This document shows positions 1,396 to 53,270 of a DNA stretch of 64,000 nucleotides, piece after piece. The stretch is taken from positions 23,385 to 87,384 of IMG/VR virus record IMGVR_UViG_3300009104_000008; one strand, written 5' to 3'. A program made the position numbers and the translations under genes. Numbering within the stretch: the first letter of the stretch is position 1; the number at the start of each line of letters is the position of its first letter. Below the pieces are notes generated by a model, which saw only the letters and a list, made by a program, of their open reading frames with translations, did no database searches and had not been told where the DNA came from. The DNA comes from a virus.

Positions 1396-3942
1396 CTAAG
1401 CGGGGTTGCCTTCGGGCAGGGGTAAATTTTTATACCTATCTTCAGTAATATCCCATAAACCATCGTCTTCTTTTGATTCTAACATAGTTTGTTTTGTTCC
1501 TGTCCAAACAACCCAATGCTTTTTATCATTCAAAGGAACGACCCTAAGATGTAATCTAGTGTCAAATTTATCCCCTTGTATCTTAAATTCATGATAACCG
1601 TGTCTTTGAACGCCAAGAGTAATAATTCCTTTATCTAATATTTTACCTTCTCTAGCATTACCTAAAACAACTTTGGCAGGAAATTTATTAGATTTACCAA
1701 ATAAGTTATAAACATCAGAAGTATCTTCAATATCTATTAACCACGCTAGTCTTTTTTCATTTACAATATAAATTAATAAAAGATTATCATCTTCAGTAGT
1801 TGTAATTGTGAATTTACCTTTTTTTGGGTTAATTTTCTCATCTTTTGCTATTGCAGATGGGTTTGCTGAAAATTTATCATTAGCGCGGTCATAAACAATA
1901 TCTTCTTGTTTAATTAGCCACTTTTTCAATTTCTTAGAATCTCCATCAAACGCTGGCCCTTCAAAATGTTCAATATAATTTTCTAACACAAATTCTTGTA
2001 TTGTATCAAATTCTACTTGGTCATCCCATTCAATTAATTTATTTTTAATGCCCATTCTTAATTCAGAACGCACACTTTTAAGCGCAATTTGTAAATCTTC
2101 TTTCCAAACATCTATATCATATAGTGCTTGTTTCTCCATTAAACTATCACCATTAAAACCGTAAATAGTAAATCCATCTAAATTAGATTTCATAAGAATT
2201 TCTGCTTCCCCATGTATTTCATCAGTAATATACATTTTCTTTACGCCTTTTAATTTATATTGAAATGGCTTATCTAAATCTTCCCAAATTGATTTCTTGG
2301 CTTTGTCTGATAACAACTCTAAAGTCTCTAATTTATCTGATTGAGTTACTTCAGGGATTTCAATAACCTTTGCTGAAAATAAACTAAAACCTTCTTTAGT
2401 TTTCTTTACCTCATCCACCTTAACTCTAACAATACTACCCACCTTAACAGATTGCTTAGTATTTAGTGCTTTACCTACAGAAAGATAGGCTTTATCTTTT
2501 AATTCTACAGTCTTATATGAACGGGCTTGTTCAGCAGTTAATGGGCCTATACCTAAAGTATATGAATGAAGCCCACTTTTTGTTTCTTTACTATCTAAAA
2601 TAATAACATCTAAATCAACAAATTTCTTCCATTTAACCCACTTAGGGTTTTTCTTAGAACCTAACTGGTAAGTAGATTCAATGTCCTTAATTACAACTCC
2701 CTCAGAAGCAGGTAAATTCATTATTTCCTCCGCATAATCACCTACTTCTTTTATAGAATCTGCAATTCTAGTATCTTTCTTTGAAGGATATGCCAATTCT
2801 TCAGATGAATGTTGGGCATATTGATATAGCAGAATATTAATTCTTTCTCTCAAAGGTTCATCTAATAAATCCTTATCATCATGTTCCATAATATCAAATA
2901 CATGAAGCCTTAATTGACCACCCTCAATGGGCTTCTTAAAAATGTGTGAAATTGTGGCGGCTCTATGAAGTGCTTTACCATTTTTAAATAGCATTAACTC
3001 CCCATCTAAAATACAATTGCCTATATGTTTCTTATCTAACCTTTCTATTTGTTCTGAACATTTATCAGAAATATCTTTTTGATTATAAGAAAGGATTTTA
3101 ATTGTTTTACCGTTTTTATGAATTTGCACTCTCATGCCGTCATATTTTTCTTGAATTACATATTCACCAGAAAAACCTTTCAGTTGCTCTAGGTCTTTTA
3201 ATTCAAATATCCTATACATTGGTTTATTAGGAACTAGGAAATTAATCTCTGACTTCTCAGCCTCGCTTTTCTCAGATTTTTTAATATCTATCTCAATTAA
3301 CGCATTCCATTCCTTTTCATTATATTCCTCAAGAAACACCTTTTTTAGTATAGATAAAACACTCTTAAATTTGGTTTTGATGCGCTTAGTATCTTTATCT
3401 TCCCCATAGTGCTCTGAAATGTATAAGGGTATATCTTTCATCTCTAAATCTAATCCATTTGCATTTTGAGTTATTTCATCGGGCTTAAGGCCGTGTTTTT
3501 CCCATGCCGATGCGGGGATTGGTAGGGAATGTTTGCGAAGGGCATAGTGAATAAAGGCGGCGAAGACACTAGAATTACTGAGTAATACATCAATTACTTC
3601 TTCGCCTAACTGATTAGCGAATGGGTCGCCAACTTCTTTAGAATCAAACCTCATTTCTTTGACTGCATCATATAGCCTCTTGGCTTGAGTTGATTCAGGG
3701 TTTTCAGCCCCATCATCAAATAAGTTATCTTCATCAATGTATTTCTTTAATACTCTAGTAAAAGAATCTAAACCATCAAACGACTCACGAATAGACTTAA
3801 CTGTTGCTCTCCATTTTTTACCGTATTTATTTGGGTCTTCTTTTGCAGATAAGTAAGAATAGCGAGTCCTCTCAAAGAAATCTAAAACACGCTTGGATAG
3901 CGCATTTTTTTCTTTTTCAAAGGAAACGCCAGATATAGCCAT
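1396..3942 (-). CDS. Large ATP-dependent DNA ligase-domain protein with N-terminal extension and C-terminal LigD phosphoesterase-like region
   Basis: QEKYDG, ILDGEL, VFDIM, EGVVIK, WVKWK motifs plus OB domain; C-terminal ILDKG...HEFKIQGDKF...HWVVW. Confidence 0.8.
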   Translation of the reverse strand: MAISGVSFEKEKNALSKRVLDFFERTRYSYLSAKEDPNKYGKKWRATVKSIRESFDGLDSFTRVLKKYIDEDNLFDDGAENPESTQAKRLYDAVKEMRFDSKEVGDPFANQLGEEVIDVLLSNSSVFAAFIHYALRKHSLPIPASAWEKHGLKPDEITQNANGLDLEMKDIPLYISEHYGEDKDTKRIKTKFKSVLSILKKVFLEEYNEKEWNALIEIDIKKSEKSEAEKSEINFLVPNKPMYRIFELKDLEQLKGFSGEYVIQEKYDGMRVQIHKNGKTIKILSYNQKDISDKCSEQIERLDKKHIGNCILDGELMLFKNGKALHRAATISHIFKKPIEGGQLRLHVFDIMEHDDKDLLDEPLRERINILLYQYAQHSSEELAYPSKKDTRIADSIKEVGDYAEEIMNLPASEGVVIKDIESTYQLGSKKNPKWVKWKKFVDLDVIILDSKETKSGLHSYTLGIGPLTAEQARSYKTVELKDKAYLSVGKALNTKQSVKVGSIVRVKVDEVKKTKEGFSLFSAKVIEIPEVTQSDKLETLELLSDKAKKSIWEDLDKPFQYKLKGVKKMYITDEIHGEAEILMKSNLDGFTIYGFNGDSLMEKQALYDIDVWKEDLQIALKSVRSELRMGIKNKLIEWDDQVEFDTIQEFVLENYIEHFEGPAFDGDSKKLKKWLIKQEDIVYDRANDKFSANPSAIAKDEKINPKKGKFTITTTEDDNLLLIYIVNEKRLAWLIDIEDTSDVYNLFGKSNKFPAKVVLGNAREGKILDKGIITLGVQRHGYHEFKIQGDKFDTRLHLRVVPLNDKKHWVVWTGTKQTMLESKEDDGLWDITEDRYKNLPLPEGNPA

Positions 3943-20727: not shown

Positions 20728-21243
20728 TCTTCCCAATTCCATTAATTATCCAAATTATCGGTTTGGGTAACATTAATAGAAATGTCCGACTTATCATAAA
20801 ATACCCCATATAATTTTTACTATTGAATTTAAAGAAAAAGTCTCAAAAAATGGGCTGTAATTTATTTGGCACTTGCGAAATTTTTATTTTTAGTTTAATT
20901 GCATTACCAGAATAAAAATAGTCTTTCAGTTTTATATACATAATAACATCATAATAGAATCATATTAGGCGAAAAAAACAAGTTTTTTTCTTTGGCTTAT
21001 TTATATTTAATTAGAATATTTATGTAGTCTATATGAGCCAATAATACATATCTACAGCCGTCTAATCTTGGGATATATTAGAGGAACATAAAGGTAATCT
21101 TCAAGAGGATTAAATTTTATGCCCACAACACATAAAAAGAAATTAATTTAATTGTTTTAATAAATCAAATAAAAAAAATTTGTTCCCCTGCTACGCACCC
21201 ATTCCCCAGTTACTCCCATATGATAGGATAATTGTATTATCAC

Positions 21244-21285
21244 ACCATATGGTTGGTGCTTTGCTACCACCCCATTTTAATTAAA
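21244..21285 (+). promoter_or_regulatory. Copy of repeated promoter-like element ACCATATGGT-N5-CTTTG-N5-ACCC-TATA-like
   Basis: Matches copies at 23867, 24574, 24837. Confidence 0.55.
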
Positions 21286-21294
21286 TGAAAATTC

Positions 21295-21360
21295 GTGAGC
21301 AGGGGCGATAAGCATACTAAAAGCCTACTAAAGGCCTATTTCGCGCTTGTTTCACTTATC
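21295..21360 (+). ncRNA. Candidate small structured RNA
   Basis: GTGAGCAGGGGCGA pairs with TCGCGCTTGTTTCAC; loop has tandem GCNTACTAAA; lies just downstream of the promoter element. Confidence 0.3.
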
Positions 21361-21411
21361 GTCTTACTCAGTCATTTCCGTATGGTGGCAGCCATGCTTC
21401 ATATTGGAATC

Positions 21412-21636
21412 TTATTCTTCTTCTTGTATAGGATGCCCATTTTCATCAACTATTTCTATGGTATCTATCTCAACAACATCACCATACTCACTATCTAACA
21501 CATCTATCCATTCAATATCCATTTCATGTAAATCGTCAATAGTTAATGTAAGAGGGTCTTTATCAGTCTTTAAAACTACAAACCGCTTATTCCATATTAT
21601 TTGCTTTTCCCAGAAAGTTAAATGATATTCTTTCAT
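21412..21636 (-). CDS. Small acidic hypothetical protein
   Basis: GGAGATGA RBS, ATGA coupling. Confidence 0.65.
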   Translation of the reverse strand: MKEYHLTFWEKQIIWNKRFVVLKTDKDPLTLTIDDLHEMDIEWIDVLDSEYGDVVEIDTIEIVDENGHPIQEEE

Positions 21637-21773
21637 TCTTCTTCATCTCCAAATATAAATCTATATAATTCATCTACAAATGTGTCATCAAACATATGAA
21701 TTGCAATATGTTGTTGTATTCTATATATTTTCCACTCAGATTCTTCCCATTCTTCATAATTTTCGTCTTTCAT
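21633..21773 (-). CDS. Small hypothetical protein (46 aa, ends FGDEEE)
   Basis: Fills the gap exactly with ATGA overlaps at both ends. Confidence 0.6.
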   Translation of the reverse strand: MKDENYEEWEESEWKIYRIQQHIAIHMFDDTFVDELYRFIFGDEEE

Positions 21774-22036
21774 TCTTCTTCCTCTTGTAGCATCTCTATC
21801 AATTGGTCGCGTGTAAATTGGGCATTACAAGTTTGACAATAATAACCTGTGATTTCGCCATCAATAGCATCAACAGTTCCAAACTCCCATTCATATTCAA
21901 TATTCCCATCAACTAAATATGAATATGGAAATATCTCTGTATTACAGTATTGAGTTTCTAAAGCCACTATGCGACATATATCACCATCATTCTTATTTTC
22001 TCCACATTCAAACTCTAATGGTTTAACTTTACTCAT
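21770..22036 (-). CDS. Small Cys-containing hypothetical protein
   Basis: CQTC; in operon. Confidence 0.6.
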   Translation of the reverse strand: MSKVKPLEFECGENKNDGDICRIVALETQYCNTEIFPYSYLVDGNIEYEWEFGTVDAIDGEITGYYCQTCNAQFTRDQLIEMLQEEEE

Positions 22037-22220
22037 TATTTCCTCTCCTTTTTATTTGAATAGTTTCTATAAATTTACTTCTATTGTAATTAGGATTAGA
22101 CCCTACTAATAGTTTAGATAAGTTATACACTTGATGATTAGTTAATTCCAAATCAACACACATATCAACTAACCATTCATAATGCCTTCTTGTAAATAAA
22201 TTACTCTTGTATTCTCTCAT
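22029..22220 (-). CDS. Small hypothetical protein
   Basis: In-operon ORF (FTRRHYE...NPNYNRSKF). Confidence 0.6.
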   Translation of the reverse strand: MREYKSNLFTRRHYEWLVDMCVDLELTNHQVYNLSKLLVGSNPNYNRSKFIETIQIKRRGNNE

Positions 22221-22405
22221 TCTATCACATCATATCCATTTAACTTTAAACAACCTTCACAACATTCAGTTGTATCGGGATGGCAATTATGACCTTCTAT
22301 TGTTTTAAACATCTTTTTATCCTCCAATCTGCATTGTTTTAAATGCTCTCTCCACGCTATTATTTCCAAATGAATGCTCATTTCATAATCACCCATCTGC
22401 AACAA
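22217..22405 (-). CDS. Small Cys-rich hypothetical protein
   Basis: In-operon ORF; probable start at MSIH after GGTGA. Confidence 0.55.
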   Translation of the reverse strand: MLQMGDYEMSIHLEIIAWREHLKQCRLEDKKMFKTIEGHNCHPDTTECCEGCLKLNGYDVIE

Positions 22406-22565
22406 TCTTCGGTTTTAATTCGTAATTCTGTTATTTTCATTCCACAGTTTTCACACTTCATATTATTCACCTCTTAATTCCACATGATGTGGGTTCTCAT
22501 AATATTGTTTAATTAAATATTTCCAATAACAATTAATGCACATATCTTTATGATAAATTTCTTTA

Positions 22566-22898
22566 TCACACTTGCACATCAAATACACGCCCCAAATAAC
22601 CATCACTAAAACAATTATCACATATGGGGGTATCATATTCTGGCCATGCAGGATTAGCCCCATTCCAATTATCTACATAAATCAATTTATTACATTGACC
22701 GCATCTAAATCTAACTCTATCATTCATAATAGTTAGACATTGAGTAATATAAAACTTAGCAGGGGCATAATCTCTAACATCAATTAAAGCATAACCCCGT
22801 TCTGAATTATCGGGAACTTTCAAAAGATACATTCCTATCTTATAACTTCCCACACCATCTTTATCTAATAAATTAAACATACCATATTTAGCCATCAA
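22566..22898 (-). CDS. Zinc-finger hypothetical protein
   Basis: CGQC...CDNC. Confidence 0.6.
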   Translation of the reverse strand: MMAKYGMFNLLDKDGVGSYKIGMYLLKVPDNSERGYALIDVRDYAPAKFYITQCLTIMNDRVRFRCGQCNKLIYVDNWNGANPAWPEYDTPICDNCFSDGYLGRVFDVQV

Positions 22899-23098
22899 AG
22901 CATCTCCGGCAAATTAAGTTGTTTTATGATTGGTTCAATATCACGCATTACAATAAGAGTTGCATCATTTAACTCATCGGTGCAATCTGCTCTTATTTTA
23001 ACGCTCTTAACAATCCAAACATGATAAGAACCAGATTTTGATTGCCCGAATTCAACTGTATATCTAAAATTATCTTCTTTAACTTCTATATTGTTCAT
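22895..23098 (-). CDS. Small hypothetical protein
   Basis: GGAGGT RBS, ATGA coupling. Confidence 0.6.
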   Translation of the reverse strand: MNNIEVKEDNFRYTVEFGQSKSGSYHVWIVKSVKIRADCTDELNDATLIVMRDIEPIIKQLNLPEML

Positions 23099-23817
23099 TC
23101 CATTACCTCCGTTATTCTATGTAATGTAGCATCTGCAATATCTTGAGAACAAGCCTGAGATGTATGATTCATACACTCAAACCTACAATCTAATACAGGC
23201 TCATTAACTATAATATCATATTTTAACAATGAATCAACAAGAACCTGTTGAATATGTGCTATCTCAGAAATAAAATAATCATTCATTCTGCTTTCTATTT
23301 CTTTAGGTGCTCTTTTCTCATCAGTAGTCCATTCAACCTTATAATTAATAGTTAATTCGTTGCGCCAACTATAGGTGGTTAAATATACATTAAGAACCAT
23401 ATCTTCCCCTACAATAGTATAATGTGTAAGTTCATCACTATCTGTAAGATATAATGAAGCCAAAGAAGGAATTTCATTTTCAACTATCTTTGTCTTTTCT
23501 TCAACTCTTTCAACCACTTCATGAATAAAACCGTTGTTAGTTAATTGCTCAGATATATTTCCTGCCTCATATTCATAAGATGTTGAAAACATTTCATCTC
23601 CCTCTTCATTAGTGGATAAAGAGTCTTTTATGAAAAAAACATAATGCGACTTTAATTGCTGTTCTGTAGTAGGCACATAATAATCCTCTTTCTCACAATT
23701 CTTAAATTCACCCAAAAAGAAATCTTGTTTTTGCATTTCAATAAAGAAATCTCTTATTTTCTCTTCTTCTTTTATTGGGAATTCAATGCTTATGCTTCTT
23801 TCATATCTCAAACTCAT
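23095..23817 (-). CDS. Hypothetical protein (240 aa), probably leaderless first gene of an early operon
   Basis: ATG about 25 nt after the TATA-like part of the promoter element; no RBS. Confidence 0.75.
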   Translation of the reverse strand: MSLRYERSISIEFPIKEEEKIRDFFIEMQKQDFFLGEFKNCEKEDYYVPTTEQQLKSHYVFFIKDSLSTNEEGDEMFSTSYEYEAGNISEQLTNNGFIHEVVERVEEKTKIVENEIPSLASLYLTDSDELTHYTIVGEDMVLNVYLTTYSWRNELTINYKVEWTTDEKRAPKEIESRMNDYFISEIAHIQQVLVDSLLKYDIIVNEPVLDCRFECMNHTSQACSQDIADATLHRITEVME

Positions 23818-23835
23818 ATACTACACCAACAACGA

Positions 23836-23876
23836 TAGGGGTTATCAAGGGTAATAGCAAAGCATTACCATATGGT
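23836..23876 (-). promoter_or_regulatory. Repeated promoter element (ACCATATGGT...CTTTG...ACCCTTGATAACCCC)
   Basis: Palindrome 23867-23876, CAAAG 23858-23862. Confidence 0.65.
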
Positions 23877-23924
23877 TGGATAATGGAACTTTGTGAATGC
23901 TTAAACCCCAATATGGCCCAGAAG

Positions 23925-23954
23925 GGCCAATTGAGGCGTAGGCGGGGAAATCAC
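23925..23954. repeat. Inverted-repeat arm (3' UTR of gene 23957-24484), complementary to 24511-24537
   Basis: Perfect core GTAGGCGGGGAA (23938-23949) vs TTCCCCGCCTAC (24515-24526). Confidence 0.8.
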
Positions 23955-23956
23955 GC

Positions 23957-24484
23957 TTATTCGGAATCCTCCGAATCTGCCGATGGTTGGGTTAGAACAA
24001 CGGGTAATTCTCCATCCCACCAATACTCGGCTTCTGTGTCGTTTGCGGCCATAGATGAATAGGCCTTCTTGAGTCTTGCATTTACAGGCTTTGAAACTGC
24101 TTCGCCATATTCGGAAGCATCCTCATAAAGACCGCCACCACTGCGCCCATGTCGGGTCATCAGTGAAGCGACTATCTCATTATCGCTGTATGTTGCGACC
24201 ATTACCGCATTTAGGTCTTGAGTCGCACTGTCTGCATTTGCTACAACTTGTGCTGGTAGGCTTGAAGTCTTGCCCTTTCGGAAGGGTGCGCCCTCAATAC
24301 CAGCGAAACAAGCCCTAATAGCGTCATACATTGACTGTGCTGATTCATCGCTTGTGCGACCAATAGTCAGCAGTTGGCTCAATACCGCCAACTTAGGGTA
24401 TTCTGTCGAGTAGTCTGGATTAACATTCATCCAAGCCTCGATTTCTTCTGCTTTGTTATCAAATTTCACTCTAATATCTGTCAT
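23957..24484 (-). CDS. Hypothetical protein, paralogue A of divergent pair
   Basis: Shares AI....G.P[FW]RKG, T.HGRS, Y.D...YG, WDG and acidic tail with 24941-25444. Confidence 0.85.
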   Translation of the reverse strand: MTDIRVKFDNKAEEIEAWMNVNPDYSTEYPKLAVLSQLLTIGRTSDESAQSMYDAIRACFAGIEGAPFRKGKTSSLPAQVVANADSATQDLNAVMVATYSDNEIVASLMTRHGRSGGGLYEDASEYGEAVSKPVNARLKKAYSSMAANDTEAEYWWDGELPVVLTQPSADSEDSE

Positions 24485-24510
24485 ATTTCTTCTCTCCTTA
24501 TCTCCCGTAG

Positions 24511-24537
24511 GTTATTCCCCGCCTACATCTAATGGCC
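24511..24537. repeat. Inverted-repeat arm (5' UTR of gene 23957-24484)
   Basis: Complementary to 23925-23954. Confidence 0.8.
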
Positions 24538-24540
24538 GAG

Positions 24541-24583
24541 TATAGGGGTTATAGGGTGTTACTCAAAGTTCACACCATATGGT
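24541..24583 (-). promoter_or_regulatory. Repeated promoter element upstream of paralogue A
   Basis: ACCATATGGT 24574-24583, CAAAG 24564-24568, ACCCTATAACCCC on minus strand. Confidence 0.65.
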
Positions 24584-24629
24584 AGTAATTGGTTTAATTA
24601 GATTAATTTAATTATTATGTCTAACTTTT

Positions 24630-24700
24630 GCAGTCGGGCAGGAAGCAGATAAGGTATGACAACAGGAGATTACAATGTTGCTATTGGTTATGATGCTGGA
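24630..24700 (+). pseudogene. Short remnant of a tail-fibre repeat unit (AVGQEA/MTTGDYNVAIGYDAG)
   Basis: 30/38 nt identical to fibre segment 62649-62686, mismatches mostly third-position; frameshifted. Confidence 0.5.
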
Positions 24701-24836
24701 ATTGCATATATTTGCAGTGTAGAAATTGCACTAAGAATAATAACTTGGATTTTCAATATGTTAGCGTCATCCGTCAATGAAAAACGCTACTTTCTTTTGA
24801 ATACCACTTTTCCACTTTTCCAATGTTTCCAACCCT

Positions 24837-24875
24837 ATCATATGGTTCGACTTTGTTCCGAACCCTTCATATAGG
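24837..24875 (+). promoter_or_regulatory. Repeated promoter element upstream of paralogue B
   Basis: ATCATATGGT-N4-CTTTG-N6-ACCCTTCATATA. Confidence 0.65.
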
Positions 24876-24893
24876 CTTACTCGATGGGATATA

Positions 24894-24921
24894 TTGCCCC
24901 TACAAGGCGACAGATAACTCA
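24894..24921. repeat. Inverted-repeat arm (5' UTR of gene 24941-25444)
   Basis: TTGCCCCTACAAGG perfectly complementary to CCTTGTAGGGGCAA (25454-25467); extends imperfectly inward. Confidence 0.85.
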
Positions 24922-24940
24922 GTTATCAGAGGTAATTATT

Positions 24941-25444
24941 ATGGCAGAAAGTTGGAATGATACACTATTAAAGGCACAACAAATGATTGACGCAGATGAG
25001 GCTGGAAACATCACTAATGATGTTAGACAGGCTTTTGAGATGCTAAGTAATGTTGGTAATCAACAGTATGAAGCAACAGGAGAAACACCTGAATCTATAC
25101 AAAAGGCGATTAAGGAGACATTAAGGAATTATCCCGGATATCCTTGGAGAAAGGGCGGTGGCGGCGTATTGCCAGCAACTGCACTTAGCGTTGTTGATTC
25201 ACTCGGCACAGATGCCGCCAATTCATTTGGTCGCGCATTCGATGAGTGTGGGGAGGGTATTCGTGCTTTCCTTACACCACACGGTCGTAGCAGTAAACAA
25301 TCCTATTCGGATGGTGCTGACTATGGAGCATATATTAGCAAGTCTATCAAAAAGACTGCAACAAGCCTATACAAGGCTGGAACATGGGATGGAACATTAG
25401 ACGGTCTATCCTCCGCTATTATGGAGGATGACGAATCAGAGTGA
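24941..25444 (+). CDS. Hypothetical protein, paralogue B of divergent pair
   Basis: GAGGT RBS before ATG 24941; motif identity with paralogue A. Confidence 0.85.
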   Translation: MAESWNDTLLKAQQMIDADEAGNITNDVRQAFEMLSNVGNQQYEATGETPESIQKAIKETLRNYPGYPWRKGGGGVLPATALSVVDSLGTDAANSFGRAFDECGEGIRAFLTPHGRSSKQSYSDGADYGAYISKSIKKTATSLYKAGTWDGTLDGLSSAIMEDDESE

Positions 25445-25467
25445 TTCTGTTGACCTTGTAGGGGCAA
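25439..25467. repeat. Inverted-repeat arm (3' end of gene 24941-25444) followed by T-tract
   Basis: Complementary to 24894-24921; CTCTTTTTATT follows. Confidence 0.85.
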
Positions 25468-25479
25468 CACACTCTTTTT

Positions 25480-26125
25480 ATTCAATTCATAATATAATCA
25501 AATTATGAGGTGTTTATATTTCAAAGCAATATAACACCATATGATTGTATTTACTTAAAATTAACATTAGGTCGGAGTCGCGGGAGCATCTTTTATAACC
25601 CCCTTCGTGAATCTTGTATTGTTAATCAATACCAACCAATTCCAAGAGAAGGTTTAATCAGAACATATCTTATAAGGTATCTTAATTATGTTTCTAAATT
25701 TCTCTTCCAAATTAACAGGTATTTCTAACACCTTCATTAACAGATGAATATCTATAAGATATTAATATGTATACCAATATCCTATATTGTATATCCTATA
25801 TATTATACTATAAGAACAATCAAATGTGGGTCAATATGCAACACTTCCAGTTTTCCAGTATCGTTGGAAAAGATAAAGTGAAGCAAAATGAACCACATAT
25901 AAAAGATATCTTATACAATATAATCATTATTCTAATTTCCAATTATTACAATACTATATACCCCTCCTTCTCTCTCCCTTCTCTCTCTCCCTATTCTCTA
26001 TGGGGTGGGCTGGAAAAGTCGGAATAGTGGAATAGACGAGAATCATGCTCAATATGAATCACATATACCATAATATGTATAACAAAATGAAGTTTCTAAC
26101 CGATTGGAAAGATAGCAGAAAAGTC
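25480..26125. other. AT-rich, probably non-coding region with TTCCA/TGGAA repeats and a polypyrimidine tract (candidate origin or control region)
   Basis: TTCCAGTTTTCCAG, TTGGAAAAG, TGGAAAAGTCGGAATAGTGGAA; CT tract 25961-25998; near strand switch. Confidence 0.35.
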
Positions 26126-26128
26126 GAG

Positions 26129-27064
26129 ATGGCTAAAATGACAGACAAAAAATATAAATTAACATTAGAAGAATTTAAGAGTATTCAACAGCGAAAAGCC
26201 AAAGGTAGTTCTTGGGCTGCTATTAGAGATGATATGTTTTACACATATACAGAAGGATATCTGATTACTATTTCAGATTTATCAAGACAATATTATCAAT
26301 TGAAATATAAACAAAATGACCCAGTTAAACCAACAAGAGGTCAATGGTCTATGTCTGAAACTCAAGCACTTATTGGTATGTTCAATACTGGAATACCCCG
26401 AAAACACATGATGGCGGCTCTTAATAGAACTTATGCTCAAGTAGCGTCTAAAATTGCTAATCTTAAGAAGGGTAATAAATTAGTTGGGAATGACATAAGA
26501 GAAAGGAACGCTAAGGAAGTAAGGGCATTACCTGCATCAACAATAGAAAAGAGGGCAATGATGTTTCATGGTCTATATTCAACAGTTCCAATTGGAAATG
26601 TAGATACTTTAAAAGAAAAATCTGAACAGGTTATAGCAGATGTAAAAGAAATGCTTAAAGAAACACCACCTGATGTAAATTTAGATGAAAAGAATAATCC
26701 ATTCCTTTACAATCTAATGAAACCAGAAATTCAAAATACTGAGGTAAAAACATCATTTAAACAAAGTAATCCTACAGTTGTAGATAACGAAGGTAATCAA
26801 TTGAATAAGGTTTCTCAAGATATTGTAGAACAATGTCAATATATTTGCGACCTATTATTATCAAAGAATAAACAATATGGTAATTCAGTATCAGAACCTG
26901 TAAGAATTTTCTCAAAGGCTGATACTAGTGAGCAAATCAAAGTTAGAATTGATGATAAGATTAGCAGGTTAATTAGGGGCGATGATTCCTTAGAACCTGA
27001 TGAAGATATAGTTGATGATTTAATCGGATATTTAATCTTATTAAAGATTCAAATGGATAAGTAA
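26129..27064 (+). CDS. Myb/HTH-like protein fused to DUF1599 (Nmad1-like) domain
   Basis: QWSMSETQALI...LNRT; C-terminal LLSKNKQYGNS...RIDDKISRL...DDLIGY; start uncertain. Confidence 0.65.
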   Translation: MAKMTDKKYKLTLEEFKSIQQRKAKGSSWAAIRDDMFYTYTEGYLITISDLSRQYYQLKYKQNDPVKPTRGQWSMSETQALIGMFNTGIPRKHMMAALNRTYAQVASKIANLKKGNKLVGNDIRERNAKEVRALPASTIEKRAMMFHGLYSTVPIGNVDTLKEKSEQVIADVKEMLKETPPDVNLDEKNNPFLYNLMKPEIQNTEVKTSFKQSNPTVVDNEGNQLNKVSQDIVEQCQYICDLLLSKNKQYGNSVSEPVRIFSKADTSEQIKVRIDDKISRLIRGDDSLEPDEDIVDDLIGYLILLKIQMDK

Positions 27065-49745: not shown

Positions 49746-51440
49746 ATGATAATATCAAATACAAATAAAGGTATATATTTTGCATGGCGAGATGAAAATA
49801 AAGAAAGGAAATCTGAGATAATACCATTCTTAGATAACCCACCTTATTTTTACATCAAAGAGTCTGCATTTAAACCAGACCAAATATTTAAAAATGATAA
49901 ATGGAAAAATAGTAAAGTATATTCTATGCGATATGAAGAAGGCGATTGGTATAACTTAGAAGGTGAAAAACTAACAAAGGTAATTTGTAATCATCCATCT
50001 GAAATAAAAGTTGTTTCTAAAGAAATGTCTGAAAATTATGATACTCAAACATATGAAGCAGATATTCAATATCACTATAGAGCATCAATTGATAAATTCA
50101 AAGATGGTGTTCCTTATCATGAATATGATATGCGTAAGTGGTATTGGGATATGGAATGGCAACAGGGTGGAGAACATGATGGTAAAATTACCTGTATTGT
50201 TTGTTATGATACCCATGATGATGAATACATAATCTATTGTTGGTTTCCATCTGATGACTTGTATGAGAGAGATACCCCAATAATTGATACTGATTCTCAA
50301 ATAACAATGATTACTTCTGCAAATGAAGAAGACTTATTAAGAACATTCATAAATTATTGTGCCGCAAAAGACCCAGATATGTTAATTGCATGGTTTGGTA
50401 ATAGATTCGATTTACCTAAATTATTAGAAAGGTGTGCAATTTACAATATTGATGCGAGAATATTATCTCCTGTATTAGAAGTTTCTAATTATGTATATAA
50501 TGCTAAAGATAGTAAATTCAAAAGAGATTTCTTTGGCCCTAAAGAACAACCAATTAAAGGTAGGATTGTTGTTAGTTTAGATTTAGCATTTGAGCGACAA
50601 TGGATTGATTCTCAAAGAGGAACACTACCAACCTTATCACTTGATTATGTTTCAGAAACAATATTAGGCAATAAGAAACTTGTTAGTGAAAAGTTCCCAG
50701 AGAAAAATGAGTTCTTTAGGAGAGCATGGTTAGAAGATACAGATAACTATTTAGAATATGCTTTGATAGATGTTGATTTAATTAGAAAGATAGATGAAAC
50801 TAATAACTTAACAGAAGCAATGATTTCTTTACAAAGAATATTGAAAGCACCATTTGAAGCGTGTTTTCATGCAACGCACATGGCTAATATTTATTTTACT
50901 CGTAATGCTTCTTGGAAAGTGTTAACAGGGGGAAATAAATATGAAAAAGATTATGAAGGGGCATTAATTTATGACCCAACATCTGAAGGAACAAATGGAT
51001 TACATCTTAATGTGGCGGCATTTGATTTTGCAGGTCTATACCCATCAATGATGATTGCCCGTAATATTTCATGGGAAACTAAATCTATTGAACCTACTGA
51101 ATTTGCTGTGAATATAGCAACACCAAGAGATTTTTCTCCTGTTGAAAAACATGAGATGTTATATTACAAAACAGATAAGTTAGGATTACTTCCTCGTTCT
51201 GTTATGGAATTGAAAACATTAAGGAATCAGTATAAAACTAACATGAAAAATTCTTCCACTAAAGAAGATTACAATAAGTGGAATAATAACCAAATGGCAG
51301 TTAAAAGATTAATGGCCTCTTTCTACGGTATTGTTGGTAATAAAGGGTTTGGTTGGTGTGATATTGATTTAGCCGCTAGTATTACTGCTAGTTCAAGAGA
51401 AGCGATTAGAGAAGCGGCATTCAAGGTGAGAGAATTATGA
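49746..51440 (+). CDS. polB: Family B DNA polymerase, N-terminal subunit (exonuclease, motifs A and B)
   Basis: WDME, AWFGNRFDLP, YALID, FDFAGLYPS, QMAVKRLMASFYG. Confidence 0.93.
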   Translation: MIISNTNKGIYFAWRDENKERKSEIIPFLDNPPYFYIKESAFKPDQIFKNDKWKNSKVYSMRYEEGDWYNLEGEKLTKVICNHPSEIKVVSKEMSENYDTQTYEADIQYHYRASIDKFKDGVPYHEYDMRKWYWDMEWQQGGEHDGKITCIVCYDTHDDEYIIYCWFPSDDLYERDTPIIDTDSQITMITSANEEDLLRTFINYCAAKDPDMLIAWFGNRFDLPKLLERCAIYNIDARILSPVLEVSNYVYNAKDSKFKRDFFGPKEQPIKGRIVVSLDLAFERQWIDSQRGTLPTLSLDYVSETILGNKKLVSEKFPEKNEFFRRAWLEDTDNYLEYALIDVDLIRKIDETNNLTEAMISLQRILKAPFEACFHATHMANIYFTRNASWKVLTGGNKYEKDYEGALIYDPTSEGTNGLHLNVAAFDFAGLYPSMMIARNISWETKSIEPTEFAVNIATPRDFSPVEKHEMLYYKTDKLGLLPRSVMELKTLRNQYKTNMKNSSTKEDYNKWNNNQMAVKRLMASFYGIVGNKGFGWCDIDLAASITASSREAIREAAFKVREL

Positions 51441-52235: not shown

Positions 52236-52363
52236 ATGGTGAAGATATAGATAAATGGTCAGAAAAACATGTAGGCAGTTTAGCCTTAACAAGAACTATT
52301 GTTGGTTTTGTTAATGTATTATTAAGCATCATAGTAGTGGCAAAATTATTTGGGTGGATTTAG
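52232..52363 (+). CDS. Small membrane peptide (43 aa)
   Basis: ATGA-coupled; hydrophobic C-terminal helix. Confidence 0.55.
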   Translation: MNGEDIDKWSEKHVGSLALTRTIVGFVNVLLSIIVVAKLFGWI

Positions 52364-52364
52364 A

Positions 52365-53270
52365 ATGGAAGTAGTTTATGGACATACTGATTCAATTTAC
52401 TGTAAAGTAGATTCTGTTGAACAAGCAGAAGAAATAGTAGTTAAATTAAATGAAGAAGTTAGAAAAATATTCCCTAATGTGTTAGGATTAAAAGAACACC
52501 CTGTAGTGCTTGAATTTGAAAAGTATTTCAGTAGTCTGGGAGTAGGCGCAACTAAAAATAGAAATGCCGGTTTAATTTCTTGGAAAGATGGAAACTATTT
52601 AAAAGAAGAAGAATTCTTTATGACTGGCTTTACTGCAAAAAGAATATCAGAAACTAAATTAGCAAAAGAAATTCAAATAACTACATTAAAGATGTGGGTT
52701 AATGGGTGCACTAAAATAGAAATTCTAGATTATCTTCGTGAAAGATACAATGGTGTATTGAATGGTGATATTGAATTAAATCAAATCATCAAGCGAAGTA
52801 GTTATAAGGAAGAACGCTTCCATGTGTATTGTGAAAATTGTAAGAGGGCATTTCATATATTTGAAGATAAACCTTTATCTGTTGGAGAATTAAAACATGA
52901 ATATACAGGCGCAATGAAGACAGGTAAATATTGGAAATCAAATGGTAAAAGGGTTTCTTTTGGGGCAGGTTTAATGGGGGCTTATTTTTATAACCATGTT
53001 ACAGGGAATGAAATTAAAGATTCTTTCTTGTTTATGAAAATTAACCAAAAGCACAATAAACTATTAGAACATCCATTAACAGGTAATTATATTAAGCCTG
53101 ATTATATATCGGGTATCTTGGAAGAAGATTTTGAAGGTTATACTCCTAATTGGGAACACTATTCAGAAGTAGTAGTAAGAAAGGCCGCACCTATATTTGA
53201 GGCAATGAATTGGGATATTAACGATATTAAGAAAGACTTGAAACAAAGGTCATTAGATGAGTGGTGGTAA
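52365..53270 (+). CDS. polB: Family B DNA polymerase, C-terminal subunit (motif C, thumb, PIP box)
   Basis: VVYGHTDS, LEFEK, KNRNAG, C-terminal QRSLDEWW. Confidence 0.9.
   Translation: MEVVYGHTDSIYCKVDSVEQAEEIVVKLNEEVRKIFPNVLGLKEHPVVLEFEKYFSSLGVGATKNRNAGLISWKDGNYLKEEEFFMTGFTAKRISETKLAKEIQITTLKMWVNGCTKIEILDYLRERYNGVLNGDIELNQIIKRSSYKEERFHVYCENCKRAFHIFEDKPLSVGELKHEYTGAMKTGKYWKSNGKRVSFGAGLMGAYFYNHVTGNEIKDSFLFMKINQKHNKLLEHPLTGNYIKPDYISGILEEDFEGYTPNWEHYSEVVVRKAAPIFEAMNWDINDIKKDLKQRSLDEWW

What the first reader, a model, noticed from the sequence alone, without database searches (positions are those of the whole stretch)
23925..25480. Two divergent paralogous genes, each enclosed by its own complementary 5'/3' UTR 'panhandle'
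Seen: ORFs 23957-24484(-) and 24941-25444(+) are paralogues (G.P[FW]RKG, T.HGRS, Y.D...YG, WDG, acidic tail), visibly more GC-rich than their neighbours, and each has the same promoter element. Gene B's 5' UTR TTGCCCCTACAAGG (24894) is the exact complement of CCTTGTAGGGGCAA (25454) just after its stop. Gene A's arms share a 12-bp perfect core (23938-23949 / 24515-24526). Both duplexes extend imperfectly to about 25-30 bp. Stem sequences differ between the genes, yet both end inward in the same motif, 5'-RAUAAC / GUGAUUY-3'. Each 5' arm also has a competing local hairpin beside the RBS (GATAAC-TCA-GTTATC; GTAGG...CCTAC). Inference: the mRNA ends pair over the whole ORF, giving a conserved RNA element for end protection, circularisation, a translation switch, or binding by the encoded protein. 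I know of no described system like this.
Basis: partly seen in the sequence, partly recalled or inferred. Interest (0 to 1): 0.88.

Follow-up and report, generated by a model that had tools for sequence, protein, structure and literature searches.

The report
End-paired mRNAs in an archaeal virus
Two sister genes of an ocean virus of archaea make messages whose first bases pair with the bases just after the stop codon, a design kept by matching mutations in related viruses and probably used to shield or reuse the message.

Summary
Genes A (23957-24484, -) and B (24941-25444, +) are paralogues. They are the two most GC-rich ORFs of the genome. Each is bracketed by its own perfect 12- or 14-nt inverted repeat.

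The window comes from a virus with group-B magrovirus features (halovirus-like portal, two ligases, split PolB, TFIIB-like gene). The shared "promoter element" is therefore read as archaeal.

In 40 of 68 evaluable family genes the 5' UTR pairs with the first ~40 nt after the stop. The arm sequences differ between clades. The other 28 genes form one clade and have a local 5' hairpin instead.

In gene B's clade, 4 of 21 pairs show compensatory changes. G.U outnumbers A.C 15 to 3. Contigs from RNA libraries reach into all four arms. No recombinase, RNase III or RtcB gene was found.

Best reading: a terminal mRNA panhandle that hides the ends, and possibly brings the stop codon next to the ribosome-binding site. 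Function is inferred, not shown.

Precedents exist only in bacteria (hbs, icaR, RNAIII). This scan already found the same design in other magrovirus genomes. I found no paper describing it.

The parts
23957..24484 (-). Gene A, 175 aa, member of an unnamed all-helical protein family with an acidic C-terminal tail
   Evidence: ORF. Paralogue of B. The family has 207 clusters at E<=1e-3. No Pfam, PHROG, NCBIfam or PDB match. AF2 model pLDDT 83.
24941..25444 (+). Gene B, 167 aa, paralogue of A
   Evidence: The start at 24941 was chosen by alignment with homologues.
24515..24526 (-). Gene A 5' arm core (GUAGGCGGGGAA in the RNA), at -42..-31 from the AUG. The predicted transcription start lies within about 2 nt of its first base.
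   Evidence: I22. Promoter spacing (TATA centre + about 26.5 nt; the spacing rule is recalled knowledge). Paired in the MFE and centroid folds.
23938..23949 (-). Gene A 3' arm core (UUCCCCGCCUAC), at +8..+19 after the stop codon
   Evidence: I22; fold. An RNA-library contig reaches 23943.
24894..24914 (+). Gene B 5' arm: outer helix 24894-24907 and inner helix 24908-14. The predicted transcription start is at about 24894-24897.
   Evidence: I17. 21 pairs, 95.2% paired, 4 with compensatory changes. Fold. An RNA-library contig starts at 24902.
25446..25467 (+). Gene B 3' arm, +2..+23 after the stop, with one bulged A at 25453
   Evidence: An RNA-library contig reaches 25465.
24913..24927 (+). 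Gene B local hairpin GAUAAC-UCA-GUUAUC, directly 5' of the SD. It overlaps the inner end of the long-range helix.
   Evidence: Read. 6 pairs, 97.9% paired, 1 compensatory pair in L003 (58 of 500 shuffles reach it, so support is weak).
24507..24526 (-). Gene A alternative local hairpin GUAGG-(10 nt)-CCUAC. It uses the first 5 nt of the 5' arm.
   Evidence: Read. It becomes UGUGG...CCACA in the 65%-identity subclade. Energy about -5 kcal/mol, z about -1.5.
24494..24499 (-). Gene A Shine-Dalgarno-like AAGGAG, left unpaired by the panhandle
   Evidence: Read. (G)AGGUGA-type motifs lie 7-9 nt before the AUG in the other clades.
24929..24933 (+). Gene B Shine-Dalgarno-like GAGGU
   Evidence: Read.
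24539..24581 (-). Gene A promoter: CCATATGG palindrome, CTTTG, ACCCT, and the TATA-like CTATAACC (24547-24554)
   Evidence: The same architecture stands upstream of family genes in other clades.
24838..24874 (+). Gene B promoter: the same composite motif, with the TATA-like TTCATATA at 24866-24873
23915..23928 (-). GC hairpin (GGCCC-UUCU-GGGCC) downstream of gene A's 3' arm; possible 3'-end element
   Evidence: Read. Conserved in 6 close relatives. No RNA contig was laid on it.
25475..25479 (+). T5 tract 8 nt after gene B's 3' arm; candidate archaeal termination signal
   Evidence: Read. A T4 or longer tract stands at +30..+32 in 5 of the 8 distinct gene-B-clade genes (window, L003, L043, L045, L047). 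The three genes of the L049/L050/L052 subclade have none before +70. That oligo-T terminates archaeal transcription is recalled knowledge.

Best explanation
Each gene is transcribed by the archaeal host machinery from a TATA-type promoter. The transcript is monocistronic and leadered. Its first 12-21 nt pair with the 12-22 nt that begin 2-8 nt after the stop codon, so the roughly 600-nt mRNA is closed into a terminal panhandle. The Shine-Dalgarno site and the AUG stay free.

The most likely role is end protection. A base-paired 5' end, with the 3' end held in a helix, denies single-stranded entry to 5'-3' and 3'-5' exonucleases. That would give long-lived, abundant messages for a strongly expressed gene family. 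As a secondary effect, the helix places the stop codon beside the ribosome-binding site, which could favour re-initiation.

Shown: the complementarity, its specificity, its conservation with covariation, and that RNA-library contigs cover the genes and enter the arms. Inferred: the exact transcript ends, that the helix forms in vivo, and the function.
For: 1. Specific complementarity. 37 of 65 family genes have a cognate 5'UTR x 3'-flank duplex of -30 kcal/mol or stronger (mean -38.9). For 1108 non-cognate pairs the mean is -19.6 and 2.8% reach -30. Cross-pairs between paralogues of one virus give -5 to -28. Three of 3 further, more distant genes with whole flanks are also positive.

2. Divergent arms. 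Arm sequences are unrelated between clades, while position is kept. The 5' arm ends at -19..-37 from the AUG and the 3' arm starts at +1..+11 after the stop in all but one positive arm set (L040: -22, +20).

3. Covariation in gene B's clade (8 sequences). 21 pairs are 95.2% paired. Four pairs changed on both sides. All one-sided changes go through G.U. 0 of 500 shuffles reach the covariation score. Partners slid by 1-3 columns give 39-50% paired and no compensatory pair. Gene A's clade has three arm haplotypes, all complementary.

4. Sense-strand bias. Isolated mismatches inside the helices are G.U 15, A.C 3. Tandem G.U/U.G pairs occur in the L004-L006 clade.

5. Whole-RNA folds. The panhandle is in the MFE and the centroid fold of both RNAs, z -6.6 (B) and -5.0 (A).

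6. Promoter spacing. The conserved promoter block ends 27-28 nt before the arm start in A and B. TATA-like boxes stand at similar distances in other clades. With the canonical archaeal spacing (recalled), the transcription start falls within about 3 nt of the arm start.

7. RNA libraries. Contigs of 4 RNA-library runs from 3 studies lie on both genes and reach 23943, 24519, 24902 and 25465. All four positions are inside the arm cores.

8. Signs of high expression. A and B are the two most GC-rich ORFs of the genome.

9. The one clade without a panhandle (28 genes) has a GC hairpin at the predicted 5' end instead. That fits 5'-end sequestration as the common need.
Against: No transcript ends are mapped. 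The RNA data are contigs, which cannot show starts, ends or strand.

The transcription starts are predicted from a spacing rule, not measured.

The sense duplex is not significantly more stable than the antisense duplex when wide flanks are folded (22 of 34 more stable, Wilcoxon p=0.13).

The G.U/A.C count is not phylogenetically independent.

In several D-clade genes the local stems at each end are perfect while the long-range helix has mismatches at the same positions. There, two kissing hairpins may be the selected form rather than one long duplex.

28 of 68 genes do without the panhandle.

Nothing tested here measures stability or translation.

The decay enzymes of the presumed host (Poseidoniales) were not examined.
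Confidence: 0.6

Rival explanations
1. Translational device rather than stabiliser. The panhandle brings the stop codon next to the SD/AUG, so terminating ribosomes re-initiate on the same message (an RNA-only closed loop). Alternatively, it works as a switch: a terminating ribosome melts the inner helix, and the freed 5' strand refolds into the local hairpin beside the SD.
For: The 3' arm begins 1-11 nt after the stop in all but one positive arm set, so the inner helix lies under a terminating ribosome. The footprint size is recalled. The outer core lies outside it, and the SD is always left free. Local hairpins that overlap the inner helix exist in A and B and change compensatorily in relatives. 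Termination-reinitiation is described for archaea (PMC6728339; title and abstract start seen in the listing). A functional 5'/3'-UTR interplay in translation is described for haloarchaea (PMC2636863, abstract).
Against: The local hairpins are weak and not general (mean z -1.0; 6 of 29 below -1.64). There are no ribosome or translation data. This reading is compatible with the stabiliser reading rather than exclusive of it.
Confidence: 0.2
2. DNA-level inverted repeats: ends of an invertible or mobile cassette, or paired binding sites for a DNA-binding protein (possibly the encoded one). No RNA role.
For: Perfect inverted repeats flank a GC-rich gene in an AT-rich genome. Recombination between arms could also keep them complementary. 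The wide-flank sense/antisense energy test is not significant. Family genes occur in both orientations relative to their neighbours.
Against: Where orientation differs (L020 against L014, L018 and L024), the promoter travels with the gene, so whole transcription units moved. In none of the positive arm sets shown (one row per distinct upstream context) does the ORF face away from a promoter block upstream of the 5' arm. No serine or tyrosine recombinase was found in the 92%-complete genome. G.U exceeds A.C 15 to 3 on the sense strand. The arms are anchored to the predicted transcription start and to the stop codon, not to gene-independent sites. The arm sequences drift freely, unlike protein-binding sites.
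Confidence: 0.07
3. Processing or circularisation signal. The helix is cut, like the stems that flank archaeal rRNAs or RNase III sites, and the ends may be ligated into a circular mRNA.
For: The helix brings the 5' and 3' ends together. The RNA-library contig ends at 23945 and 24519 are base-pair partners in A's helix (my arithmetic). The structural-module ligase also scores on the RNA_ligase model (30.9 bits against 108.7 for the DNA ligase domain).
Against: The A and B helices have no bulge-helix-bulge geometry; there is only a one-base bulge. The virus encodes no RNase III and no RtcB. The RNase III model matched 8 bacterial and none of the archaeal control genomes. No back-splice or other joint appeared in the RNA contigs, though contigs drop rare forms. 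Contig ends are not molecule ends.
Confidence: 0.06
4. The duplex, with its conserved inner motif, is a binding platform for a protein. That could be the encoded protein (autoregulation) or a host dsRNA or K-turn binder.
For: A and B share the same inner motif geometry although their outer helices differ (my reading). Each paralogue has private arms.
Against: The motif is not kept in the D clade and varies elsewhere. There are no tandem G.A pairs, which a K-turn needs (recalled definition). The protein has no recognisable nucleic-acid-binding fold or family.
Confidence: 0.07

Closest known systems
B. subtilis hbs mRNA 5'/3'-UTR interaction (Braun, Durand, Condon 2017, PMC5737220; abstract read)
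   Same: A long-range helix (14 bp) between the 5' and 3' UTR of one monocistronic, highly expressed mRNA. It modulates RNase access to the 5' region and is tied to a strong SD.
   Different: hbs is bacterial. It is a single gene, not a family-wide covarying design. Its helix is internal to structured UTRs, not at the predicted first nucleotide. The RNases involved (RNase Y, J1) are bacterial. The case here is an archaeal virus, the helix is 12-30 bp and terminal, and it starts 1-11 nt after the stop.
S. aureus icaR and RNAIII 5'UTR-3'UTR pairing (review PMC7821165; passages read)
   Same: The 3' UTR pairs with the 5' UTR of the same mRNA.
   Different: icaR's UCCCC motif masks the RBS, represses translation and creates an RNase III site. 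RNAIII pairs only 7 nt. Here the SD is left free, and neither the virus nor the archaeal control genomes showed an RNase III gene. One gene of the panhandle-less clade (L032) may pair its SD region with its 3' flank. This was not followed up.
Haloarchaeal 5'/3'-UTR functional interaction in translational control (Brenneis and Soppa 2009, PMC2636863; abstract read)
   Same: In archaea, both UTRs together are needed for regulation, which implies communication between the mRNA ends.
   Different: The abstract reports no base pairing between the UTRs. It concerns cellular genes and growth-phase regulation.
Processing stems flanking archaeal rRNAs, with bulge-helix-bulge motifs and circular intermediates (recalled, not checked in a paper here)
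   Same: A long-range helix between sequences flanking a whole functional RNA in archaea.
   Different: No bulge-helix-bulge geometry in the A and B helices. The enclosed RNA is a translated ORF.
Panhandles of segmented negative-strand RNA virus genomes, and the eukaryotic cap-poly(A) closed loop (the first recalled; the closed loop is described in PMC7821165)
   Same: Terminal complementarity, or end-to-end closure of a translated or replicated RNA.
   Different: Those are genome promoters for an RNA polymerase, or protein-bridged loops. Here it is an RNA-RNA helix in an mRNA of a dsDNA virus.

Membership tests
mRNAs with 5'UTR-3'UTR base pairing (hbs / icaR kind) | Complementary segments in the 5' UTR and 3' UTR of the same gene, more than chance gives | tested here: met
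   cognate mean -38.9 against non-cognate -19.6 kcal/mol. A and B are the only such genes among 113 ORFs of the genome.
mRNAs with 5'UTR-3'UTR base pairing (hbs / icaR kind) | Both segments lie inside one transcript | tested here: inconclusive
   RNA-library contigs reach into all four arm cores, but contigs show no ends or strand, and no single contig spans a gene. Transcription starts are predicted only from promoter spacing.
mRNAs with 5'UTR-3'UTR base pairing (hbs / icaR kind) | Pairing is under selection (covariation) | tested here: met
   (4 of 21 pairs compensatory; 0 of 500 shuffles reach the score).. Different arms in each clade.
mRNAs with 5'UTR-3'UTR base pairing (hbs / icaR kind) | Pairing changes mRNA decay or translation | not testable with these tools
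   Needs reporter and half-life experiments.
Invertible DNA segment (inverton) | Both orientations of the segment between the repeats occur | tested here: not met
   No positive arm set shown has the ORF facing away from a promoter block upstream of the 5' arm. Where the orientation to neighbours differs, the promoter moved too. No strand-switch joints in the RNA contigs (weak).
Invertible DNA segment (inverton) | A site-specific recombinase is encoded | tested here: not met
   PF00239 and PF00589: no match in the 87-kb, 92%-complete record. The controls matched 12 and 14 of 14 genomes.
Archaeal bulge-helix-bulge processing stem | Two 3-nt bulges on opposite strands separated by 4 bp (definition recalled) | tested here: not met
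   B: 21 pairs with a single 1-nt bulge. A: 12 contiguous pairs, then an asymmetric loop. Other clades were read only by eye.
RNase III processing site | A dsRNA-specific RNase III is available in the virus or host | tested here: inconclusive
   None in the virus. The model matched 8 bacterial and none of the archaeal control genomes. Poseidoniales genomes themselves were not searched.
Known RNA families (Rfam 15) | Match to a covariance model | tested here: not met
   0 matches at E<=1 in 21000-26200. A helix split by a 560-nt ORF is in any case outside what such models cover.
Magroviruses, group B (Philosof et al. 2017, PMC5434244; passages read) | Halovirus-like morphogenetic genes | tested here: met
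   The portal's best tblastn hits are Haloarcula tailed viruses, 28% identity, E 2e-53.
Magroviruses, group B (Philosof et al. 2017, PMC5434244; passages read) | Two ATP-dependent DNA ligases, one in the structural and one in the replicative module | tested here: met
   1396-3942(-) beside the portal and terminase genes, and 42072-43634(+).
Magroviruses, group B (Philosof et al. 2017, PMC5434244; passages read) | Split family-B DNA polymerase gene (7 group-B genomes in the paper) | tested here: met
   49746-51440 (exonuclease domain and start of the polymerase domain) and 52350-53270 (rest of DNA_pol_B). No phylogeny against named magrovirus genomes was made.

The most novel reading that the evidence does not exclude
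The panhandle is an RNA-only closed loop, a functional counterpart of the eukaryotic cap-poly(A) loop in a system without caps or tails. The 5'-terminal and 3'-terminal hairpins first kiss through complementary loops and then zip into a duplex. That duplex parks the stop codon beside the Shine-Dalgarno site. Each terminating ribosome melts the inner helix and is handed back to the start of the same message, so one protected mRNA is translated repeatedly. The design would then be a general and portable way for archaeal viruses, and perhaps archaea, to make hyper-productive mRNAs.
Probability: 0.15. Interest if true: 0.85.

Novelty: new variant of a known kind. Interest (0 to 1): 0.7.

Why it matters
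Pairing between the ends of one mRNA is known from a few single bacterial genes. Here it is a family-wide, covarying design. It sits at the predicted first nucleotide and right after the stop codon, in viruses of one of the most abundant archaeal groups of the surface ocean.

If confirmed, it would be the first sequence-defined case of direct 5'-3' mRNA pairing in the archaeal domain that I could find. It would make an open question testable: how do archaea, which have no cap or poly(A) tail, protect and reuse messages? The test is simple arm and compensatory mutants.

It would also mark this unnamed protein family as a probable high-expression product of magroviruses, and would give a candidate module for stable expression in archaeal hosts.

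It is not new to this scan. At least seven follow-up reports on other magrovirus genomes describe the same design. This window adds four things:
- RNA-library contigs that enter the arms;
- a sister clade without the panhandle;
- the G.U bias;
- the negative searches for recombinase, RNase III and RtcB genes.

Tried and rejected
Protein function. These searches gave nothing usable:
- Pfam, PHROGs and NCBIfam;
- PDB by sequence profile;
- Foldseek against PDB;
- VIA wide, best Z 6.7 on generic three-helix pieces;
- the ESM Atlas.
BFVD gave one unnamed viral protein (E 9e-6).

Similarity to deposited phages. blastn and tblastn of the locus found no match.

Bacterial reading. Sigma-70-like sites are not enriched (6 found, 7.4 expected), and no intrinsic terminator was found. 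I dropped the bacterial reading.

Sense versus antisense duplex energy is not significant. Wide flanks add spurious outer pairs, for example between promoter DNA and downstream sequence of gene A.

My first duplex scan with 90 x 60 nt flanks gave inflated energies for all pairs. I replaced it with narrower flanks.

RNA cover. No contig of the four RNA-library runs was laid on 23600-23942, 24520-24901 or 25466-25800. No joints were listed, but contigs drop rare forms.

Literature. 'panhandle' + 'archaeal virus' + 'mRNA' gave 2 irrelevant papers. 'archaea' + 'mRNA circularization' + UTR terms gave none on this subject among the 10 listed. Three magrovirus papers, searched by term, do not mention the family, its promoters or its expression. 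Supplements are closed and could hold gene-level expression tables.

No covariance model was built, because the arms lie about 560 nt apart, beyond the 400-column limit. The MAFFT alignment of gene A's clade (A4) misaligns the arms of the 65%-identity subclade, so I did not count pairs on it.


Full report
WHAT IS THERE

The region holds two divergent ORFs: A (23957-24484, minus strand, 175 aa) and B (24941-25444, plus strand, 167 aa). They are paralogues (BLASTP E=1e-12, 32% identity). They are also the two most GC-rich of 89 ORFs in the 87,384-bp virus record that contains the window: 0.47 and 0.44 against a mean of 0.33, sd 0.04.

One is 14 nt perfect, at 24894-24907 / 25454-25467. The other is 12 nt perfect, at 23938-23949 / 24515-24526.

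I scored every one of 113 ORFs of the genome for complementarity between its 5' and 3' flanks. A and B stand alone, with scores of 24 and 31. The next best ORF scores 18 and the median is 13.

WHAT KIND OF GENOME

The portal protein's only hits among deposited phage records are tailed viruses of Haloarcula (28% identity, E 2e-53) and a Methanomassiliicoccales virus. The window also encodes:
- two ATP-dependent DNA ligases, one beside the portal and terminase genes and one in the replication block;
- a family-B DNA polymerase split into two genes;
- an RFC-like clamp loader;
- a TFIIB-like protein, just under Pfam's cut-offs.

Halovirus-like morphogenesis genes, the two ligases and the split polymerase are what Philosof et al. 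2017 describe for group-B magroviruses, viruses assigned to Marine Group II (Poseidoniales) archaea (PMC5434244, passages read). I made no tree against named magrovirus genomes, so the group assignment rests on these features.

The consequence is that promoter, termination and RNA decay must be read in archaeal terms.

THE PROMOTER

A composite motif (CCATATGG palindrome, CTTTG, ACCCT, then a TATA-like box) occurs five times in the window against 0.6 expected. It precedes both genes, and the same architecture precedes family genes in other viruses.

The conserved ACCCT block ends 27-28 nt before the first base of the 5' arm in both A and B. With the canonical archaeal distance from TATA centre to start (about 26-27 nt, recalled knowledge), transcription should begin within about 3 nt of the arm's first base.

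THE FAMILY

A profile of 12 members finds 207 clusters at E<=1e-3 among 1.84 billion representatives. None carries a Pfam, PHROG or NCBIfam name, and no solved structure matches convincingly. An AlphaFold model (pLDDT 83) is all-helical with a disordered acidic tail. The proteins' function remains unknown.

IS THE PANHANDLE CONSERVED?

I collected 66 distinct family genes from IMG/VR and metagenome contigs, and later 4 more. For each I folded the 5' UTR (-70..-9) against the first 45 nt after the stop.

- Of 65 genes with complete flanks, 37 give -30 to -45 kcal/mol.
- The other 28 give -8 to -25 kcal/mol.
- 1108 non-cognate combinations average -19.6, and 2.8% of them reach -30.
- The 5' UTR of one paralogue does not pair with the 3' flank of the other in the same virus (-5 to -28).
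- Three of 3 more distant genes with whole flanks are also positive.

The 28 negatives are exactly one well-supported clade of the protein tree (99/96). These are the orthologues of the second paralogue in many other magroviruses. They carry a short GC hairpin (GCCC-N4-GGGC type) at the predicted 5' end instead.

The positive genes fall in at least six clades with unrelated arm sequences. Geometry is kept throughout. The 5' arm ends 19-37 nt before the AUG, leaving a (G)AGGUGA-type Shine-Dalgarno site free. The 3' arm begins 1-11 nt after the stop in all but one arm set (L040, +20).

COVARIATION

In a virus whose B protein is 95% identical, the 14-nt arm differs at four positions, and all four are compensated.

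On the alignment of 8 genes of B's clade:
- 21 pairs are 95.2% paired;
- 4 pairs changed on both sides;
- every one-sided change passes through G.U;
- 0 of 500 shuffles reach the covariation score or the paired percentage, although 21 of 500 reach 4 compensatory pairs;
- sliding the partners by 1-3 columns gives 39-50% paired and no compensatory pair.

The tool warns that related sequences can beat shuffles without structure. The slid control and the cross-clade result are therefore the stronger arguments.

Gene A's clade has three arm haplotypes, all complementary. One is entirely different and includes a G.U pair.

RNA OR DNA?

Four results favour RNA on the sense strand.
- Isolated mismatches inside the helices are G.U 15 times and A.C 3 times (these counts are not independent events).
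- Tandem G.U/U.G pairs occur.
- The arms are anchored to the predicted start and to the stop codon.
- Both full-length RNAs put the panhandle in their MFE and centroid folds, with z -6.6 and -5.0.

Three results speak against a DNA-level inversion or mobile cassette.
- The genome has no serine or tyrosine recombinase gene.
- In no positive arm set shown does the ORF face away from a promoter block upstream of the 5' arm.
- Where a family gene has the opposite orientation to its neighbour, the promoter moved with it.

One test did not help. Sense and antisense duplex energies over wide flanks do not differ significantly (22 of 34, p=0.13).

RNA DATA

Six RNA-library runs share words with the stretch. 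I laid four of them, from three studies. Eleven contig pieces lie on gene A (23943-24519) and gene B (24902-25465). Their outermost ends fall inside all four arm cores, and no joints were reported.

Contigs cannot show true ends, strand or level. This shows only that sequence of both genes, arms included, is present in RNA libraries.

ALTERNATIVE LOCAL FOLDS

In B, GAUAAC-UCA-GUUAUC sits directly 5' of the SD and overlaps the inner helix. One relative changes it compensatorily.

In A, the first five arm bases can pair locally with CCUAC. The diverged subclade keeps this as UGUGG/CCACA.

In several D-clade genes both ends are hairpins with perfect stems and complementary loops. The long helix has mismatches exactly where the local stems are perfect. 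This suggests a kissing-hairpin form.

Across 29 distinct 5' arms the local folds are only modestly better than shuffles (mean z -1.0). I therefore treat a switch as possible, not shown.

HOW IT MOST LIKELY WORKS

This part is inference. The message starts inside a helix and ends just beyond it, so neither end offers single-stranded entry to exonucleases. The SD and AUG stay open.

The outer core lies outside the footprints of both an initiating and a terminating ribosome, while the inner helix lies under the terminating one (footprint sizes recalled). The helix therefore tolerates translation and holds the stop codon near the start.

End protection is the simplest common denominator, because the panhandle-less clade also has a structured 5' end.

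Processing or circularisation is less likely, for three reasons:
- there is no bulge-helix-bulge geometry;
- the virus has no RNase III or RtcB gene;
- the RNase III model matched only bacterial control genomes.

COMPARISON WITH WHAT IS KNOWN

The closest described case is the 14-bp 5'/3'-UTR helix of B. subtilis hbs mRNA, which modulates RNase Y access (PMC5737220, abstract). icaR and RNAIII of S. aureus pair their UTRs too, with repressive or unknown effect (PMC7821165, passages). In haloarchaea both UTRs are jointly required for translational control, but the abstract reports no pairing (PMC2636863).

I found no paper on end-paired mRNAs in archaea or their viruses, and none of three magrovirus papers searched by term mentions it. 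Supplements were closed.

Within this scan the same design has already been reported by follow-up agents on at least seven other magrovirus genomes. Those notes agree with this report but are not independent evidence.

VERDICT

A selected RNA panhandle is very probable (about 0.85). Its function as an end shield is plausible but untested. Overall confidence in the combined statement is 0.6. I class it as a new variant of a known kind.

Noticed in passing
window 25522-25543 (-) and 21246-21263 (+): Two of the five copies of the composite promoter motif point inward, against the local gene direction. The copy at 25522-25543 reads leftward. With its TATA-like TCATAATT (25501-25508) it would start an RNA near 25478 that is antisense to gene B's 3' arm, and so carries the same sequence as B's 5' arm. 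The copy at 21246 faces the minus-strand small genes.
   Followed up: partly
Its fold is no better than shuffles (-19.9 kcal/mol, z -1.26).
   Followed up: partly
window 37084-37947 (+): A virus-encoded TFIIB-like protein: Zn ribbon 28.5 bits against a cut-off of 29, and cyclin repeat 22.3 against 23.6. It could direct host RNA polymerase to the composite viral promoters.
   Followed up: no
window 49746-51440 and 52350-53270 (+): The family-B DNA polymerase is split into two ORFs about 900 nt apart, as reported for some group-B magroviruses. I did not examine what lies between the halves.
   Followed up: no
window 1396-3942 (-): An 848-aa protein in the structural module with an ATP-dependent DNA ligase domain (108.7 bits). 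It also passes the RNA_ligase model's cut-off (30.9 against 27 bits). About 600 residues outside the ligase domain are unassigned.
   Followed up: no
L006 / L008 / L010 / L012 (IMGVR_UViG_3300025127_000017 and 3300030116_004952): Some relatives carry three paralogues of the family. Two have private panhandles and one has none.
   Followed up: partly
L032:2425-2992 flanks: One gene of the panhandle-less clade has a borderline duplex (-25 kcal/mol). In it the 3' flank just after the stop seems to pair with the GGAGGA Shine-Dalgarno region, an icaR-like anti-SD arrangement.
   Followed up: no
3' flanks of several clades (e.g. L014:1298-1320, L006:2158-2180): The first 10-20 nt after the stop often hold further UGA triplets in the other two frames (UGAGUGAUUGA type). 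They overlap the recurring GUGAUU motif of the 3' arm.
   Followed up: no
window 24600-24830: The 350-nt spacer between the two divergent promoters is AT-rich. It holds only a 72-aa ORF (24656-24874) that overlaps B's promoter. The cumulative GC skew has its minimum at about 25000-26000, where the gene direction switches.
   Followed up: no
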